From NCBI RefSeq assembly GCF_000027125.1, contig NC_017627.1: a stretch of DNA of 64,000 nucleotides; one strand, written 5' to 3'. Position 1 is the stretch's first letter, and the number at the start of each line of letters is the position of its first letter. Shown one piece after another: positions 3,001 through 6,000 of the stretch. This stretch comes from Escherichia coli 042 (GTDB lineage Bacteria > Pseudomonadota > Gammaproteobacteria > Enterobacterales > Enterobacteriaceae). Made by a program: the position numbers.

Positions 3001-6000
3001 AATTAGTTGAATTCTATATTCTGCCCGTGACGGTAACACGGGGTCTTAAAGCTGTTTACTTGGCTCCAACCGAAGACGCTGTCCCTCAGGCACCGGAGAC
3101 GTTTGGAGGTGTATGGGAGCCGCGTTATCCGCAGGAGCTTCATAAGGTGATTCATACGACCATACCATTGAATCGCTGAACAGTGTGATCCGTCACTCAA
3201 TCAAGAAACACAGGGTGTTACCGATAGATGAGTTAGTAAAAAGCGGTGTCATCCAGGTAGCGTTACAGAAATGGGCCATACCCCTGAAGGGATGTCATCA
3301 TGGCGATGAGTCGCTTTCTTATCAATGACATCCATAGTGTCATTATAATAACGACATTTATGCATGCCATTGACATTGTCAGATACTATATTTATGACCA
3401 AGAACTCCATGCAGGTCCATTGCTATTGATATCCTCCTGAGCCTCCCGTACAATATCTTTTATTAGGCTTAAATCCATATTTGAGGCTATTTTGATTATA
3501 TTATCAAAATCAGCATCTATTACACATGTAACTATATCAATCATTATACACCTCCTTTTTCTAAACTTTTACATGCTAAAACAAAATAAATCAAAAAATA
3601 GATATTATTATAGCAATAGTTGATTGCTGTTCTAACTGAACGCCACGTTCAACAACCTGTTTGACAGCTTCAACTTTAAACTCCTCAGGATAAAGCTTAC
3701 CATGGGAATATCTACGGCAGCAGGCCAGTAATGGATTAAGTGATAACAGGTGTCTGGAAATATAGGGGCAAATCCACCGACCCCGTACTGCTCACGCAGC
3801 TTATCCAACTGTGGTATCATTTTTTCCAGAGGCGGTCGAACCTCGCCTTCGCAAAATAAGCGGAAGCCTGGCGAAGGATATCGTTACTGCGGCGCAGTTC
3901 ACGATTTTCACGCTCCAGCTCTTTCAGACGCTGACGTTCAGCAGTGGTGAGCCCGCCATCACCGCCCCCGGTATCCCGCTCATGCTGGCGAACCCAGACA
4001 CGCAGAGTCTCCGGTGTACAGCCAATCTTTGGGGCAATGGAACAAATTACCGCCCATTGTGAGTCATATTCGCCCTGACTTTCCAGAACCATACGAATCG
4101 CCCTCTGACGGACTTCGGGGGAAAACGAGTATTTTTAGTCATCCTGTTTACCTCTTTCTCTGGAAGTTTAGTCTCCAGGATTTCCGGGATGGTTCAGTTT
4201 ACGTATGTTTTGGCTGGTTGATACTGTTTTTGTCATGTGAGTCACCTCTGACTGAGAGTCTACTCATTTAGCCGCGTGTCCACTATTGCTGGGTAAGATC
4301 AAATCATTAATATCTCTGCATAACGTGCAGGAGATGCTCCATAGCATTAACTACATATATTTATACTAAGTTTAGTCACACAGATTTCGATTATTATCAT
4401 AAACTTATAGTTATATATCCCTTAGTTATTAATAGTTGGGTACATTATATAGTGTTTCCAATAACTGTACATGTCTACTCCTGTAAGTGTGGCTGAGGAT
4501 TCTTGGGTTATCATTCAACATGACAACTTTGCACTATTATCTAAATGAGGCGCTCCTTAATATCATAGAAAATAGAAGGCAGAATTTTGCATTTCTTGTT
4601 TTTTTATCTCTTAGCTTTATAGGGATAATTATTACTGACTCTTTGATATACAGTGTTTCCTTAAAAGCCGAAGAAGAACTAAAAGTTCATAGTGACAAAG
4701 TAATATTTGTCAAATTATATCGACCTAAAACGGTAGGATATATAACGGAAAAATTCATTACGGTTAGTAAAGTTCTTTCTTTCTCGAAGAGCGCATTCCT
4801 CTATGTCAGCGATACACCTTTTTCCGGTGAACTATTTTCGGTGAACGGAATTGACAAGCTGGGATTAAATACGGAATATTCGGGGGATTTAAATGATAAG
4901 TACAATGGCAATGTTGCTATTGTTAATGAATCTAGTCCGTTTTTCAGTAAGAAACAAATATTTATTAATGGTGTTCCGTTTAAAATTATTGGTGTCCGAT
5001 TAAACTCAAAAACGGATTTTCTTGACAGCCTTGGATTGAAAGCAAGCCAATCAGATGAACACATTTTTATTCCACTGGAAACTATGTTTAAAGTGAAACT
5101 CGATAACAGAGTCAATGCTGTTAAAATCTTTCTTGATAACATAGTAACAAAGAGAGATATAAACAACGTAAAGAGAGTTTTATATGACAATGATATAAGA
5201 AAATTCGATATTGTCACATCTTTAAACGCCAAGGAAGCTGTGGACAGAGTGTTAGAGAGGTTTTCATTACTCACTAACTCTGTTTACGTGATATTAACTC
5301 TGTCTGCGTCCGTGACATGTTTTATTTTATCGAAACGCAGTTTTTATTCGAGACGGGTAGAGTTATCATTAAAAATAATCCATGGTACAGAAAAGAAAGA
5401 GATTACAGTTCTAATTATCATTGAGTCTTTAATAATGCTGAGCGTATGTCTTTTTATTTCAGTCATCTATGCAGGAGTAATAATGCATATTATTAAGTAT
5501 TTTTTAGATGTAACAATAAGTATTAGGACAACAATGATTACAATATCACTTGCCAATGTCCTATTGGTATTTATATCTGCAAATATCATTTTCGGCAGGC
5601 TATTTTTCAGTATAAACCCTGTTAATGCAATAAAAGGAAAGATCGAGTGAGACACATATTATACTCATTTCTTGCAATAAATGCTTATCTGTTTTCGACA
5701 CAGACTCTGGCAAAAGACTGTATCATTGATAATTTCTTTCAGAAAAGCATCCAGTTTAATTCTTATTCTCTTGATATCGAAGAGTTGGATATTAATAAAC
5801 ATAACAATATAAAAACGATGTTACCAGATATAAATATAGGGTTAGGGCAGTATATAAACAACAATCAGTGGTTCTCATCTATTACAGACAGCAATTTTTA
5901 TTTATCATTATCCTATAATCTTCTATCGGCTTATGAAGCAAAAATGCAGAATGATAAATTGGATATTGCTAATTATTTAAAATATATTGAAATGCTTAGT

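What the first reader, a model, noticed from the sequence alone, without database searches (positions are those of the whole stretch)
3392..3544. Orphan 50-codon ORF with a near-perfect ribosome-binding site in an AT-rich gap between IS remnants
The minus-strand ORF MIDIVTCVIDADFDNIIKIASNMDLSLIKDIVREAQEDINSNGPAWSSWS is preceded by AAGGAGGTG at ideal spacing. It is too short for the ORF track. It shares an NMDLxL stretch with the candidate aar product at 46246, which is weak but could indicate a second small regulator, or a leader peptide. Its 3' side abuts an IS256-family remnant, so it may itself be truncated.
Basis: seen in the sequence. Interest (0 to 1): 0.45.

Follow-up and report, generated by a model that had tools for sequence, protein, structure and literature searches.

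The report
Likely prenylated-peptide precursor gene on pAA
The 50-codon ORF is a real, conserved, AggR-activated gene (EC042_pAA005A) and is most likely the precursor peptide of a three-gene cassette (peptide, prenyl-enzyme, IDI), which suggests that enteroaggregative E. coli makes a ComX-like tryptophan-prenylated peptide nobody has described.

Summary
The gene is already annotated (EC042_pAA005A; WP_000565591.1). Published RNA-seq shows AggR activates it strongly (log2 -5.56 in the aggR mutant), and its function is listed as unknown.

It is not truncated and it is not Aar-like. In other E. coli-type lineages and in Salmonella, a 50-53-aa homologue sits directly upstream of an intact 342-345-aa enzyme gene followed by idi. 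The peptide is under purifying selection (dN/dS 0.23-0.30) and its C-terminal PAWSSW motif never varies.

In pAA plasmids the cassette is split. The peptide gene keeps its AggR promoter, but its own enzyme gene is truncated. The intact enzyme+idi copy, about 1 kb away and convergent, has lost its own peptide gene to a ~110-nt deletion. The two halves co-occur in 57 of 57 complete genomes.

Best reading: a ComX/PalX-like precursor that ORF3 prenylates on tryptophan. The gene family and its synteny are shown here; the chemistry is inferred.

The parts
3392..3544 (-). Small ORF (50 aa) = EC042_pAA005A / WP_000565591.1. Proposed precursor peptide: an acidic helical leader (about residues 1-39) and a core ending in the invariant PAWSSWS.
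   Evidence: sequence; RefSeq annotation; homologues found only in E. coli and Salmonella; orthologues in intact operons; dN/dS 0.23-0.30; AggR-dependent RNA, PMC6392122.
3549..3557 (-). Shine-Dalgarno sequence AAGGAGGTG, 6 nt from GGAGG to the ATG.
   Evidence: SD-like sequences are also present upstream of the orthologues.
3573..3611 (-). Predicted AggR-dependent promoter: AggR site ATAATAATATC (3611-3601), a 22-bp spacer, and the -10 hexamer TAGCAT (3578-3573).
   Evidence: The promoter string printed for EC042_pAA005A in Table 1 of PMC6392122 is identical to window 3629-3555 (-) (searches compared). It is a paralogue of the ORF3 promoter at 1263-1334 (85% identity). The prediction comes from that paper and was not tested by mutagenesis.
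3249..3410 (-). Truncated remnant of the peptide's own (cognate) enzyme gene. Its start codon overlaps the last 19 nt of the small ORF. Homology to ORF3 covers only 3316-3410 (about 30 codons).
   Evidence: arms 1397-1476 / 3316-3395, 78% identity. Other pAA plasmids carry 79 more bp here but are also interrupted. It is probably the gene annotated EC042_pAA005, which is co-regulated (log2 -5.34); that identification is inferred.
1397..2425 (+). ORF3 / EC042_pAA003, 342 aa: a trans-IDS-fold enzyme and the proposed peptide tryptophan prenyltransferase acting in trans on the small ORF product.
   Evidence: PGAP: class 1 isoprenoid biosynthesis enzyme; no Pfam hit; fold; homology to the remote clade; invariant D107xxxD111 and Q232-D233-D234-x-x-D237; 57/57 co-occurrence.
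2429..2968 (+). idi / EC042_pAA004, isopentenyl-diphosphate delta-isomerase (IPP to DMAPP). It is the third gene of the cassette in every lineage.
   Evidence: NF002995, 137.8 bits, above the cutoff of 127; synteny.
1263..1334 (+). Paralogous AggR-type promoter copy driving ORF3-idi.
   Evidence: 85% identity to 3562-3633; PMC6392122 Table 1, EC042_pAA003.
1351..1396 (+). Scar of a second copy of the small ORF upstream of ORF3. The first ~10 and last ~6 codons are recognisable, and a ~110-nt internal deletion has its junction at 1379/1380.
   Evidence: four-way alignment with the window's small ORF, L004 and Salmonella.

Best explanation
The ORF encodes the precursor peptide of a small three-gene cassette: peptide, then a trans-IDS-like enzyme, then IPP isomerase.

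Proposed mechanism:
1. AggR activates the promoter at 3573-3611 and the 50-aa peptide is translated.
2. The ORF3 enzyme binds a prenyl diphosphate through its DxxxD and DDxxD motifs. Idi raises the supply of that donor.
3. ORF3 transfers the prenyl group to a tryptophan in the invariant C-terminal PAWSSW[S/A] tail, as ComQ does to ComX and PalQ does to PalX.
4. The acidic leader is then removed, leaving a short, uncharged lipopeptide.

In pAA plasmids the cassette is split. The peptide gene keeps its promoter but its own enzyme gene is truncated. A diverged intact enzyme+idi copy, about 1 kb away and convergent, has lost its own peptide gene. The surviving halves would therefore work in trans under two copies of the same AggR promoter.

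Shown here or in cited papers: the gene is real and conserved, it is syntenic with the enzyme and idi, AggR controls its transcription, and the enzyme has the trans-IDS fold and the stated homology.

Inferred: translation of the peptide, prenylation, the target residue, the prenyl donor, trans-complementation and the biological role.
For: Conservation and synteny:
- A 50-53-aa homologue lies directly upstream of an intact 341-345-aa enzyme gene. Idi/NUDIX follows wherever the contig extends that far. This holds in four lineages: L004/L005, L015/L016 and two Salmonella groups. The peptide gene abuts or overlaps the enzyme start in L004/L005 and Salmonella, and in the window's truncated remnant; in L015/L016 a 143-nt spacer separates them.
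- PAWSSW is invariant while the rest of the peptide falls to 42% identity.
- dN/dS is 0.23-0.30 with dS at or above 1, against 0.12-0.19 for the enzyme.
- In 5.8 billion proteins the peptide is found only with this system, in E. coli and Salmonella.
- The peptide gene and ORF3 co-occur in 57 of 57 complete E. coli genomes; in 55 they are convergent and ~1.04 kb apart.
- A copy with no enzyme gene beside it has decayed: it stops after PAWSS.

Expression:
- Transcript log2 -5.56 (padj 3e-80) in the aggR mutant. The published AggR promoter string is identical to the window (PMC6392122). Transcript is up in the aar mutant (PMC5570504).

Enzyme:
- AFDB neighbours are Paenibacillus 'terpene synthase'-type proteins and ~690-aa prenyltransferase+cyclase fusions.
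- hhalign gives 99% probability (E 6e-18) to a clade that contains such a fusion (Pfam SQHop_cyclase_C). Three of its five enzymes were seen to lie beside a leader/core-type peptide, two of those also with an M50-like protease.
- No Pfam polyprenyl_synt match even at E<=10.

Fit to the known systems:
- ComX precursors are 53-58 aa. ComQ accepts Trp at positions 2-4 from the C-terminus (PMC5331326). Here W49 is 2nd from the end.
- All characterised trans-IDS-like peptide prenyltransferases target Trp (PMC13290415).
Against: - There is no biochemical evidence, and translation of the peptide has not been shown.
- Direct similarity to ComQ or PalQ was not tested, because no sequences or models for them were available here.
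- The catalytic Gln three residues before the SARM in SxPT1 and in the remote clade is Thr230 in the ORF3 family. Gln232 sits at -1 instead, and P0032 has no Gln there.
- The peptide matches no Pfam family: no hit at E<=10 for the window peptide and none at E<=0.1 for any allele.
- No protease, exporter or receptor kinase lies in the cassette in any lineage.
- The AF2 enzyme-linker-peptide model failed (pLDDT 48), so there is no docking support.
- In pAA the peptide's cognate enzyme is truncated, and cross-processing by the ~77%-type paralogue is assumed.
- Within the pAA lineage, the leader-versus-core contrast is not significant (P=0.085).
- A few frameshifted alleles exist (P0015-P0017).
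Confidence: 0.58

Rival explanations
1. The peptide is not a substrate. It is a small accessory or regulatory subunit of ORF3, which is a genuine isoprenyl-diphosphate synthase or other lipid-forming enzyme, as the EAEC literature annotates it. The cassette's product would then be an isoprenoid lipid that alters the envelope.
For: - The literature calls pAA003 an 'isoprenyl diphosphate synthase'. Mutants of pAA003 and idi are reported to be more sensitive to defensin and polymyxin and to affect biofilm (Morin 2013, cited via PMC10725161 and PMC6392122).
- The fold is that of trans-IDS enzymes, and both acidic motifs are intact.
- Tight synteny and translational coupling fit a subunit as well as a substrate.
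Against: - Known small IDS subunits are themselves IDS-fold proteins of more than 140 aa, not 50-aa peptides.
- No Pfam polyprenyl_synt match.
- The family lacks the canonical FQ and GK motifs around the SARM (read; the motif definitions are from general knowledge).
- Conservation is concentrated in a Trp-containing C-terminal tail after a variable acidic helix, which is the leader/core pattern of a precursor.
- Homologous remote enzymes lie beside obvious RiPP-type precursors.
- The intact ORF3-idi copy in pAA has lost its adjacent peptide gene, yet the literature reports it as functional.
Confidence: 0.14
2. The ORF is a cis-acting regulatory leader, such as a ribosome-arrest or coupling peptide like TnaC or SecM. 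Its conserved Pro/Trp-rich C-terminus would control translation of the overlapping downstream enzyme gene. In pAA it would be a leftover with no target.
For: - The stop codon overlaps or abuts the enzyme start in the remnant, in L004 and in Salmonella.
- The strongest conservation is in the last 7 residues, including P and W, as in arrest peptides (the comparison is from general knowledge).
Against: - Conserved positions also span the N-terminal two-thirds (D3, D12-F13, L25, Q36).
- In L015/L016 a 143-nt spacer separates the peptide gene from the enzyme gene, so coupling is not universal.
- ORF3-idi is expressed and AggR-regulated without it.
- The ORF remains intact, with a strong SD and its own AggR promoter, in 57 of 57 plasmids although its downstream gene is dead.
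Confidence: 0.1
3. Whatever the family does elsewhere, the pAA copy is a non-functional relic. It would be transcribed only because it kept a copy of the AggR promoter, and carried along with the neighbouring virulence genes.
For: - Its cognate enzyme gene is truncated in every pAA plasmid examined.
- The region is a mosaic of IS fragments.
- A few frameshifted or shortened alleles exist (P0013-P0017).
- The within-lineage constraint test is not significant (P=0.085).
- The window-versus-55989p comparison shows 5 non-synonymous and 3 synonymous changes (read).
Against: - The ORF, its SD and its promoter are intact in all 57 complete genomes, and always alongside ORF3-idi, even when rearranged 35 kb apart.
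- 14 of the 15 variable sites fall in the leader, and the core carries one singleton change.
- The ORF3 copy lost its peptide gene, while the other copy lost its enzyme. This complementary loss is what subfunctionalisation of a duplicate would produce.
Confidence: 0.15

Closest known systems
ComX / ComQ of Bacillus (comQXPA quorum sensing)
   Same: - A ~50-58-aa ribosomal precursor with the modified Trp close to the C-terminus (ComQ accepts positions 2-4; here W49 is 2nd).
- The modifying enzyme has the trans-IDS fold.
- The peptide and enzyme genes are adjacent or overlapping.
- No dedicated protease or exporter lies in the locus (PMC5331326; PMC10853753).
   Different: - The gene order is reversed: here the peptide comes first.
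- There is no ComP/ComA two-component receptor.
- An idi gene is attached.
- ComQ keeps the FARM and lacks the SARM (PMC10853753), whereas ORF3 has a DxxxD first motif and a full DDxxD SARM.
- No Pfam family, ComX included, matches the peptide.
- The hosts are Enterobacteriaceae plasmids under a virulence regulator.
PalX / PalQ of Paenibacillus alvei (C-terminal Trp prenyltransferase)
   Same: - The precursor gene lies directly upstream of an all-alpha, trans-IDS-like enzyme that databases call 'terpene synthase'.
- PalQ uses DxxxD motifs (D89/D93 and D200/D204).
- AFDB structural neighbours of ORF3 include many ~310-aa Paenibacillus proteins with that annotation (PMC10853753).
   Different: - PalX has an NHLP-type leader and its Trp is the very last residue. 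PalQ is abolished by C-terminal extension (PMC13290415).
- Here the leader has no NHLP match and Trp is followed by S or A.
- There is no PalP kinase.
- Whether those Paenibacillus AFDB hits are PalQ orthologues was not verified.
ChrPC-type bifunctional prenyltransferase-cyclase RiPP enzymes
   Same: - The ORF3 family is homologous (hhalign 99%) to a clade containing P0037. P0037 has an N-terminal trans-IDS-like domain and a C-terminal squalene-hopene-cyclase-like domain. The review describes this architecture for ChrPC, whose P domain prenylates an internal Trp (PMC13290415).
- A leader/core-type peptide gene lies next to P0037.
   Different: - ORF3 has no cyclase domain.
- There is no M50-like protease in the cassette.
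- P0037 was not shown to be an orthologue of ChrPC.
- The Gln at -3 of the SARM in that clade is Thr in ORF3.
Aar / ANR family small regulators
   Same: Both are small, AggR-dependent and encoded on pAA. They share a 5-of-7 match: NMDLSL in the ORF against NMDLAL in Aar.
   Different: The pairwise score is 15 bits (E 0.038 for a single comparison). The N and M of the match are not conserved in the peptide's orthologues. The genomic context is entirely different.

Membership tests
ComQXPA (ComX precursor / ComQ) | Precursor of about 53-58 aa with the modified Trp 2nd-4th from the C-terminus | tested here: met
   The peptide is 50-53 aa. W49 is 2nd and W46 is 5th from the end, and both are invariant. 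The criterion is from PMC5331326. This is a sequence-level test only.
ComQXPA (ComX precursor / ComQ) | Adjacent ComP histidine kinase and ComA response regulator | tested here: not met
   No kinase or response-regulator Pfam domains were found among the neighbours in L004-L008 and L015-L020, or in the window locus.
ComQXPA (ComX precursor / ComQ) | Peptide belongs to the ComX sequence family | tested here: not met
   No Pfam family matches: none at E<=10 for the window peptide and none at E<=0.1 for any of the 8 alleles. NCBIfam also gives nothing.
ComQXPA (ComX precursor / ComQ) | Enzyme belongs to the ComQ family (InterPro IPR033965) | not testable with these tools
   No InterPro/SFLD model or ComQ sequence was available. 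Pfam and NCBIfam give no hit for ORF3.
PalQ/PalX | NHLP-type leader domain in the precursor | tested here: not met
   No Pfam or NCBIfam match for the peptide.
PalQ/PalX | Acceptor Trp is the C-terminal residue | tested here: not met
   All alleles end in W-S or W-A. PalQ activity is abolished by C-terminal extension (PMC13290415).
PalQ/PalX | Precursor gene immediately upstream of the prenyltransferase gene | tested here: met
trans-IDS-like peptide Trp prenyltransferases (general) | Isoprenoid-synthase (trans-IDS) fold | tested here: met
trans-IDS-like peptide Trp prenyltransferases (general) | Two acidic metal/diphosphate-binding motifs (FARM-like and SARM-like) | tested here: met
   D107xxxD111 and D233-D234-x-x-D237 are invariant across the family and shared with the remote clade.
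trans-IDS-like peptide Trp prenyltransferases (general) | Conserved Gln just upstream of the SARM that contacts the indole N-H | tested here: inconclusive
   ORF3 has an invariant Q232 at -1 but T230 at -3. The remote clade and SxPT1 (Q216/D219) have Gln at -3, and P0032 has none. The register used in the review's figure could not be checked.
trans-IDS-like peptide Trp prenyltransferases (general) | Demonstrated transfer of a prenyl group to a peptide Trp | not testable with these tools
   This needs an enzyme assay or mass spectrometry.
Canonical trans-isoprenyl diphosphate synthase (literature annotation of ORF3) | Match to Pfam polyprenyl_synt (PF00348) | tested here: not met
   No Pfam match even at E<=10. 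No PDB sequence match for the family profile.
ANR (Aar) family | Significant sequence similarity to Aar/ANR proteins | tested here: not met
   BLASTP gives 15 bits and 8/24 identities. The matching residues are not conserved in orthologues.

The most novel reading that the evidence does not exclude
Typical enteroaggregative E. coli, including the O104:H4 outbreak lineage, and some Salmonella strains produce a tryptophan-prenylated ribosomal peptide. In EAEC its production is controlled by the virulence regulator AggR. The peptide would be made from pAA005A by ORF3, with idi supplying the donor. Within the literature searched here, this would be the first ComX-like prenylated peptide outside Firmicutes and Bacteroidota/cyanobacteria-type producers, and the first in a human enteric pathogen. 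It would be the real product behind the long-used 'ORF3/ORF4' virulence markers and behind their biofilm and cationic-peptide-resistance phenotypes. It might act as a signal or as a surface-active lipopeptide.
Probability: 0.45. Interest if true: 0.85.

Novelty: new variant of a known kind. Interest (0 to 1): 0.66.

Why it matters
ORF3 and idi (ORF4) have been known for more than a decade as AggR-regulated pAA genes. They are used as EAEC virulence markers and are linked to biofilm and resistance to cationic peptides, but they have only been labelled 'isoprenoid biosynthesis'. pAA005A has been listed as an AggR-activated gene of unknown function.

Recognising the three as one cassette turns that vague annotation into a specific, cheaply testable hypothesis: a peptide carrying a +68, +136 or +204 Da modification on Trp.

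If the hypothesis is right:
- Tryptophan-prenylated RiPPs would extend to Enterobacteriaceae and to a virulence regulon.
- A new enzyme subfamily would be defined, one with no Pfam model and only 12 relatives among 1.84 billion representative proteins.
- A new precursor family would be defined.
- A possible new signalling or surface-active molecule in EAEC and O104:H4 pathogenesis would be identified.

The split-operon arrangement is also a clean example of complementary gene loss after duplication.

Tried and rejected
1. Aar/ANR relationship: BLASTP gives 15 bits, and the matching residues are not conserved in orthologues. Rejected.
2. 'The ORF is truncated': orthologues in intact operons have the same length and the same C-terminus. 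Rejected.
3. AF2 model of an enzyme-(GGGGS)6-peptide fusion with 7 paired sequences: pLDDT 48.4, pTM 0.46. Uninformative, so not used as evidence either way.
4. Pfam, NCBIfam and PADLOC on the peptide and on ORF3: no hits.
5. PDB sequence search with the enzyme profile: only a chance hit to a glutathione transferase, E 0.3.
6. Rfam scan of 3100-3800: only a chance miRNA hit, E 0.71. No known RNA explains the locus.
7. IS256 identity of the 3' flank: not confirmable.
8. Search for intact L004-, L015- or Salmonella-type operons in PLSDB plasmids and in complete E. coli genomes by megablast: no match. The intact forms are known here only from draft or metagenome contigs.
9. Within-pAA test of core versus leader constraint: P=0.085, not significant.
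10. Morin et al. 2013 could not be retrieved, so the ORF3/idi phenotypes are cited second-hand.
11. P0032, the next-closest enzyme relative: only 148 nt of upstream sequence is available, there is no clear peptide homologue, and a different gene follows it. Left unresolved.
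Full report
OBSERVATION

The minus-strand ORF at 3392-3544 translates to MIDIVTCVIDADFDNIIKIASNMDLSLIKDIVREAQEDINSNGPAWSSWS. It is preceded by AAGGAGGTG at 3549-3557, with 6 nt between GGAGG and the ATG, and that ATG is the first start codon in the frame. The local GC content is 0.27-0.29, against 0.5-0.6 in the flanks.

Neither feature is rare on its own. The same 8 kb contains 63 ORFs of at least 30 aa, and the exact 9-mer turns up at least once in 24 of 100 shuffles of the window.

An IS3-family fragment lies upstream at 3817-4092. The 'IS256 remnant' downstream could not be confirmed by Pfam, NCBIfam or PGAP.

WHAT THE LOCUS IS

The ORF lies in an inverted, diverged partial duplicate of the promoter and 5' end of the 342-aa gene at 1397-2425. 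The arms are 1263-1334 against 3562-3633 (85% identity) and 1397-1476 against 3316-3395 (78% identity).

The ORF's last 19 nt overlap an ATG at 3410. That ATG opens a truncated paralogue of the 342-aa gene, of which only about 30 homologous codons remain.

Conversely, upstream of the intact 342-aa gene the first ~10 and last ~6 codons of a second small ORF are still recognisable. A ~110-nt internal deletion removed the rest.

The 342-aa gene is followed by idi (NF002995, 137.8 bits).

IDENTITY AND EXPRESSION

RefSeq annotates the ORF as hypothetical protein WP_000565591.1.

The AggR-dependent promoter sequence that Yasir et al. print for EC042_pAA005A is identical to window 3629-3555 on the minus strand. 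It comprises the AggR site ATAATAATATC, a 22-bp spacer and the -10 hexamer TAGCAT, with 56 bp from the AggR site to the start codon (PMC6392122).

Their RNA-seq gives these log2 changes in the aggR mutant:
- pAA005A: -5.56 (padj 2.8e-80)
- pAA005: -5.34
- pAA003 (ORF3): -4.54
- pAA004 (idi): -4.13

The paper lists the function of pAA005A as unknown. The transcript is also raised in an aar mutant (PMC5570504). So transcription of the ORF and its control by AggR were already established. Its function was not.

IT IS A REAL, CONSERVED GENE, AND IT IS NOT TRUNCATED

A search of 5.8 billion proteins finds the peptide only in E. coli and Salmonella.

The 342-aa enzyme has few relatives: 12 hits among 1.84 billion representatives.

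Every full-length close relative of the enzyme has a 50-53-aa gene directly upstream. Where the contig extends far enough, a NUDIX/idi gene lies downstream. These relatives are L004/L005 (enzyme 77% identical), L015/L016 (76%) and Salmonella L006-L008 and L017-L020 (60-62%).

The peptides are:
- L004: MLDLVNFVTEADFDNIVKIASELDLNALKDLVQEAQFDISASNPAWSSWA
- L015: MSDMVTCIINADFNDIVKIVTDMDLSQVIDVIQEAQRNLHSNGPAWSSWS
- Salmonella: MQLHD(V/I)(V/A)NFI…VDFEHLTQ(V/I)VSGV(D/E)LDVLKNIVHNAQEGMQVN(N/S)PAWSSWS

PAWSSW is invariant while overall identity falls to 42%.

dN/dS is 0.23-0.30 with synonymous sites near saturation. The neighbouring enzyme gives 0.12-0.19.

A copy with no enzyme gene beside it has lost its final residues (P0047).

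SPLIT CASSETTE IN pAA

In complete E. coli genomes the peptide gene and ORF3 occur in exactly the same 57 plasmid records out of 5,426 genomes. In 55 of them the two genes are convergent and ~1.04 kb apart. In the other two they are 35 kb apart. The set includes the O104:H4 outbreak strains.

No complete genome or PLSDB plasmid carries an intact operon of the L004, L015 or Salmonella type.

THE ENZYME

ORF3 has no Pfam or NCBIfam match. PGAP calls it a 'class 1 isoprenoid biosynthesis enzyme'.

Fold:
- The AF2 model is all-alpha, with pLDDT 68.5 and pTM 0.73.

AFDB neighbours: after the self-hit, the best neighbours include many ~310-aa Paenibacillus proteins annotated 'terpene synthase' or uncharacterised. 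PalQ carried that annotation before it was characterised. The other group is ~690-aa proteins with a squalene-cyclase C-terminal domain (PMC10853753).

Sequence homology: the ORF3 family is homologous (hhalign 99.0%, E 5.9e-18, 217 columns) to a remote clade of five enzymes. One of them, P0037, has a trans-IDS-like domain plus an SQHop_cyclase_C domain. That is the architecture the 2026 review gives for ChrPC, whose P domain prenylates a Trp in a peptide (PMC13290415). Three of the five were checked and lie beside leader/core-type peptides, two of them also with an M50-like protease:
- …EELEERLEL…CRYSIWC
- …EVEELEERVEFGKWS…
- an 80-aa Cys/Trp/Tyr-rich peptide

Motifs:
- D107xxxD111 and Q232-D233-D234-x-x-D237 are invariant in the ORF3 family.
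- PalQ uses D89/D93 and D200/D204.
- One diagnostic is not cleanly met. The catalytic Gln lies at -3 of the SARM in SxPT1 (Q216/D219) and in the remote clade. In ORF3 that position is Thr230, with Gln232 at -1.

MECHANISM PROPOSED

AggR switches on both promoter copies. The acidic peptide (net charge about -6, with an uncharged tail) is translated. ORF3 ionises a prenyl diphosphate and alkylates a Trp in PAWSSW[S/A]. Idi supplies DMAPP directly, or feeds GPP and FPP synthesis through it. Leader removal then gives a short neutral lipopeptide.

The precedents support this. ComX precursors are 53-58 aa, and ComQ accepts Trp at positions 2-4 from the C-terminus. Both ComQ and PalQ still modify leaderless core peptides (PMC5331326; PMC10853753). 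That makes processing by a non-cognate paralogue plausible, given that the core is invariant.

The reported ORF3/idi phenotypes (biofilm, defensin and polymyxin survival) are cited second-hand. They fit a lipopeptide or a lipid product equally well.

Everything from translation onward is inference.

RIVALS

The alternatives I scored are:
- An accessory subunit of a true lipid-forming synthase (0.14).
- A cis-acting arrest or coupling leader peptide (0.10).
- A transcribed relic in pAA (0.15).

The evidence for and against each is given in the rival explanations.

COMPARISON AND NOVELTY

The cassette resembles ComX/ComQ and PalX/PalQ in how it would work, but it is not a member of either family.
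- There is no ComP/ComA or PalP.
- The gene order is reversed relative to comQX.
- The leader is not NHLP-type.
- Trp is not the terminal residue.
- No Pfam family, ComX included, matches the peptide.
- The enzyme falls outside existing models.

The 2026 review lists only ComQ, the ChrPC P domain and PalQ as characterised trans-IDS-like peptide prenyltransferases, and it mentions no Gram-negative enteric example. A full-text search found no paper linking EAEC with peptide prenylation or RiPPs.

I therefore rate the gene itself as already annotated and its regulation as known. The functional assignment is a new variant of a known kind of system.

VERDICT

| Claim | Confidence |
|---|---|
| The ORF is a real, conserved gene | ~0.95 |
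| It is functionally tied to ORF3-idi | ~0.85 |
| It is a Trp-prenylated precursor | ~0.58 |

Interest: 0.66.

Noticed in passing
window 1351-1396: Scar of a second copy of the small ORF directly upstream of the intact ORF3. The first ~10 codons (start codon lost or changed to TTG) and the last ~6 codons (RSSR** where the intact ORF has WSSWS*) remain. About 110 nt were deleted, with the junction at 1379/1380.
   Followed up: yes
window ~3316/3317 (inside the truncated enzyme remnant): The window lacks a 79-bp stretch that most other pAA plasmids (55989p, pSTEC1024_2, O104:H4) carry here. In those plasmids the remnant reads on a little further but still ends in a stop codon.
   Followed up: partly
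window 1149-1237 and 3688-3776: An 89-nt direct repeat (93% identity), the 3' end of an IS2/IS3-family transposase gene, lies next to both copies of the AggR-type promoter. It has opposite orientation relative to the promoter in the two copies. This suggests IS-mediated rearrangement created the split cassette.
   Followed up: partly
By megablast it occurs only in the same 57 plasmids that carry the cassette, so it does not behave like a multi-copy IS.
   Followed up: yes
L006-L008 (about 8900-10850) and L019-L021: The Salmonella versions of the cassette lie next to a colicin/immunity/lysis module, or next to a SPATE-type autotransporter (Peptidase_S6). So there too the cassette sits among accessory or virulence-type genes.
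   Followed up: no
L010, L012, L013, L022: Distant homologues of the enzyme sit in uncharacterised RiPP-like clusters from metagenomes. These have leader/core peptides (for example …EELEERLEL…CRYSIWC), M50-like proteases, and in one case a fused squalene-cyclase-like domain.
   Followed up: partly
L004 4780-4850: By eye, the intact L004 operon also has an AggR-type promoter: ATAAATTTATC, 22 nt, then TG-n-TAAGGT. The locus carries IncFII repA and AraC-family genes. This suggests an AggR-like regulon on another plasmid lineage.
   Followed up: no
protein P0020: A 486-aa protein, 97% identical to ORF3 over 94% of ORF3's length, is recorded on a 5.8-Mb contig. It may be a chromosomally integrated or fused copy.
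   Followed up: no
L009 1-148: The next-closest enzyme relative (P0032, E 1e-34, GC-rich metagenome contig) is followed by a 323-aa gene instead of idi. Only 148 nt of upstream sequence are available. One frame there reads …MPAPVFWGSNCSQI*, which might or might not be a related core.
   Followed up: partly
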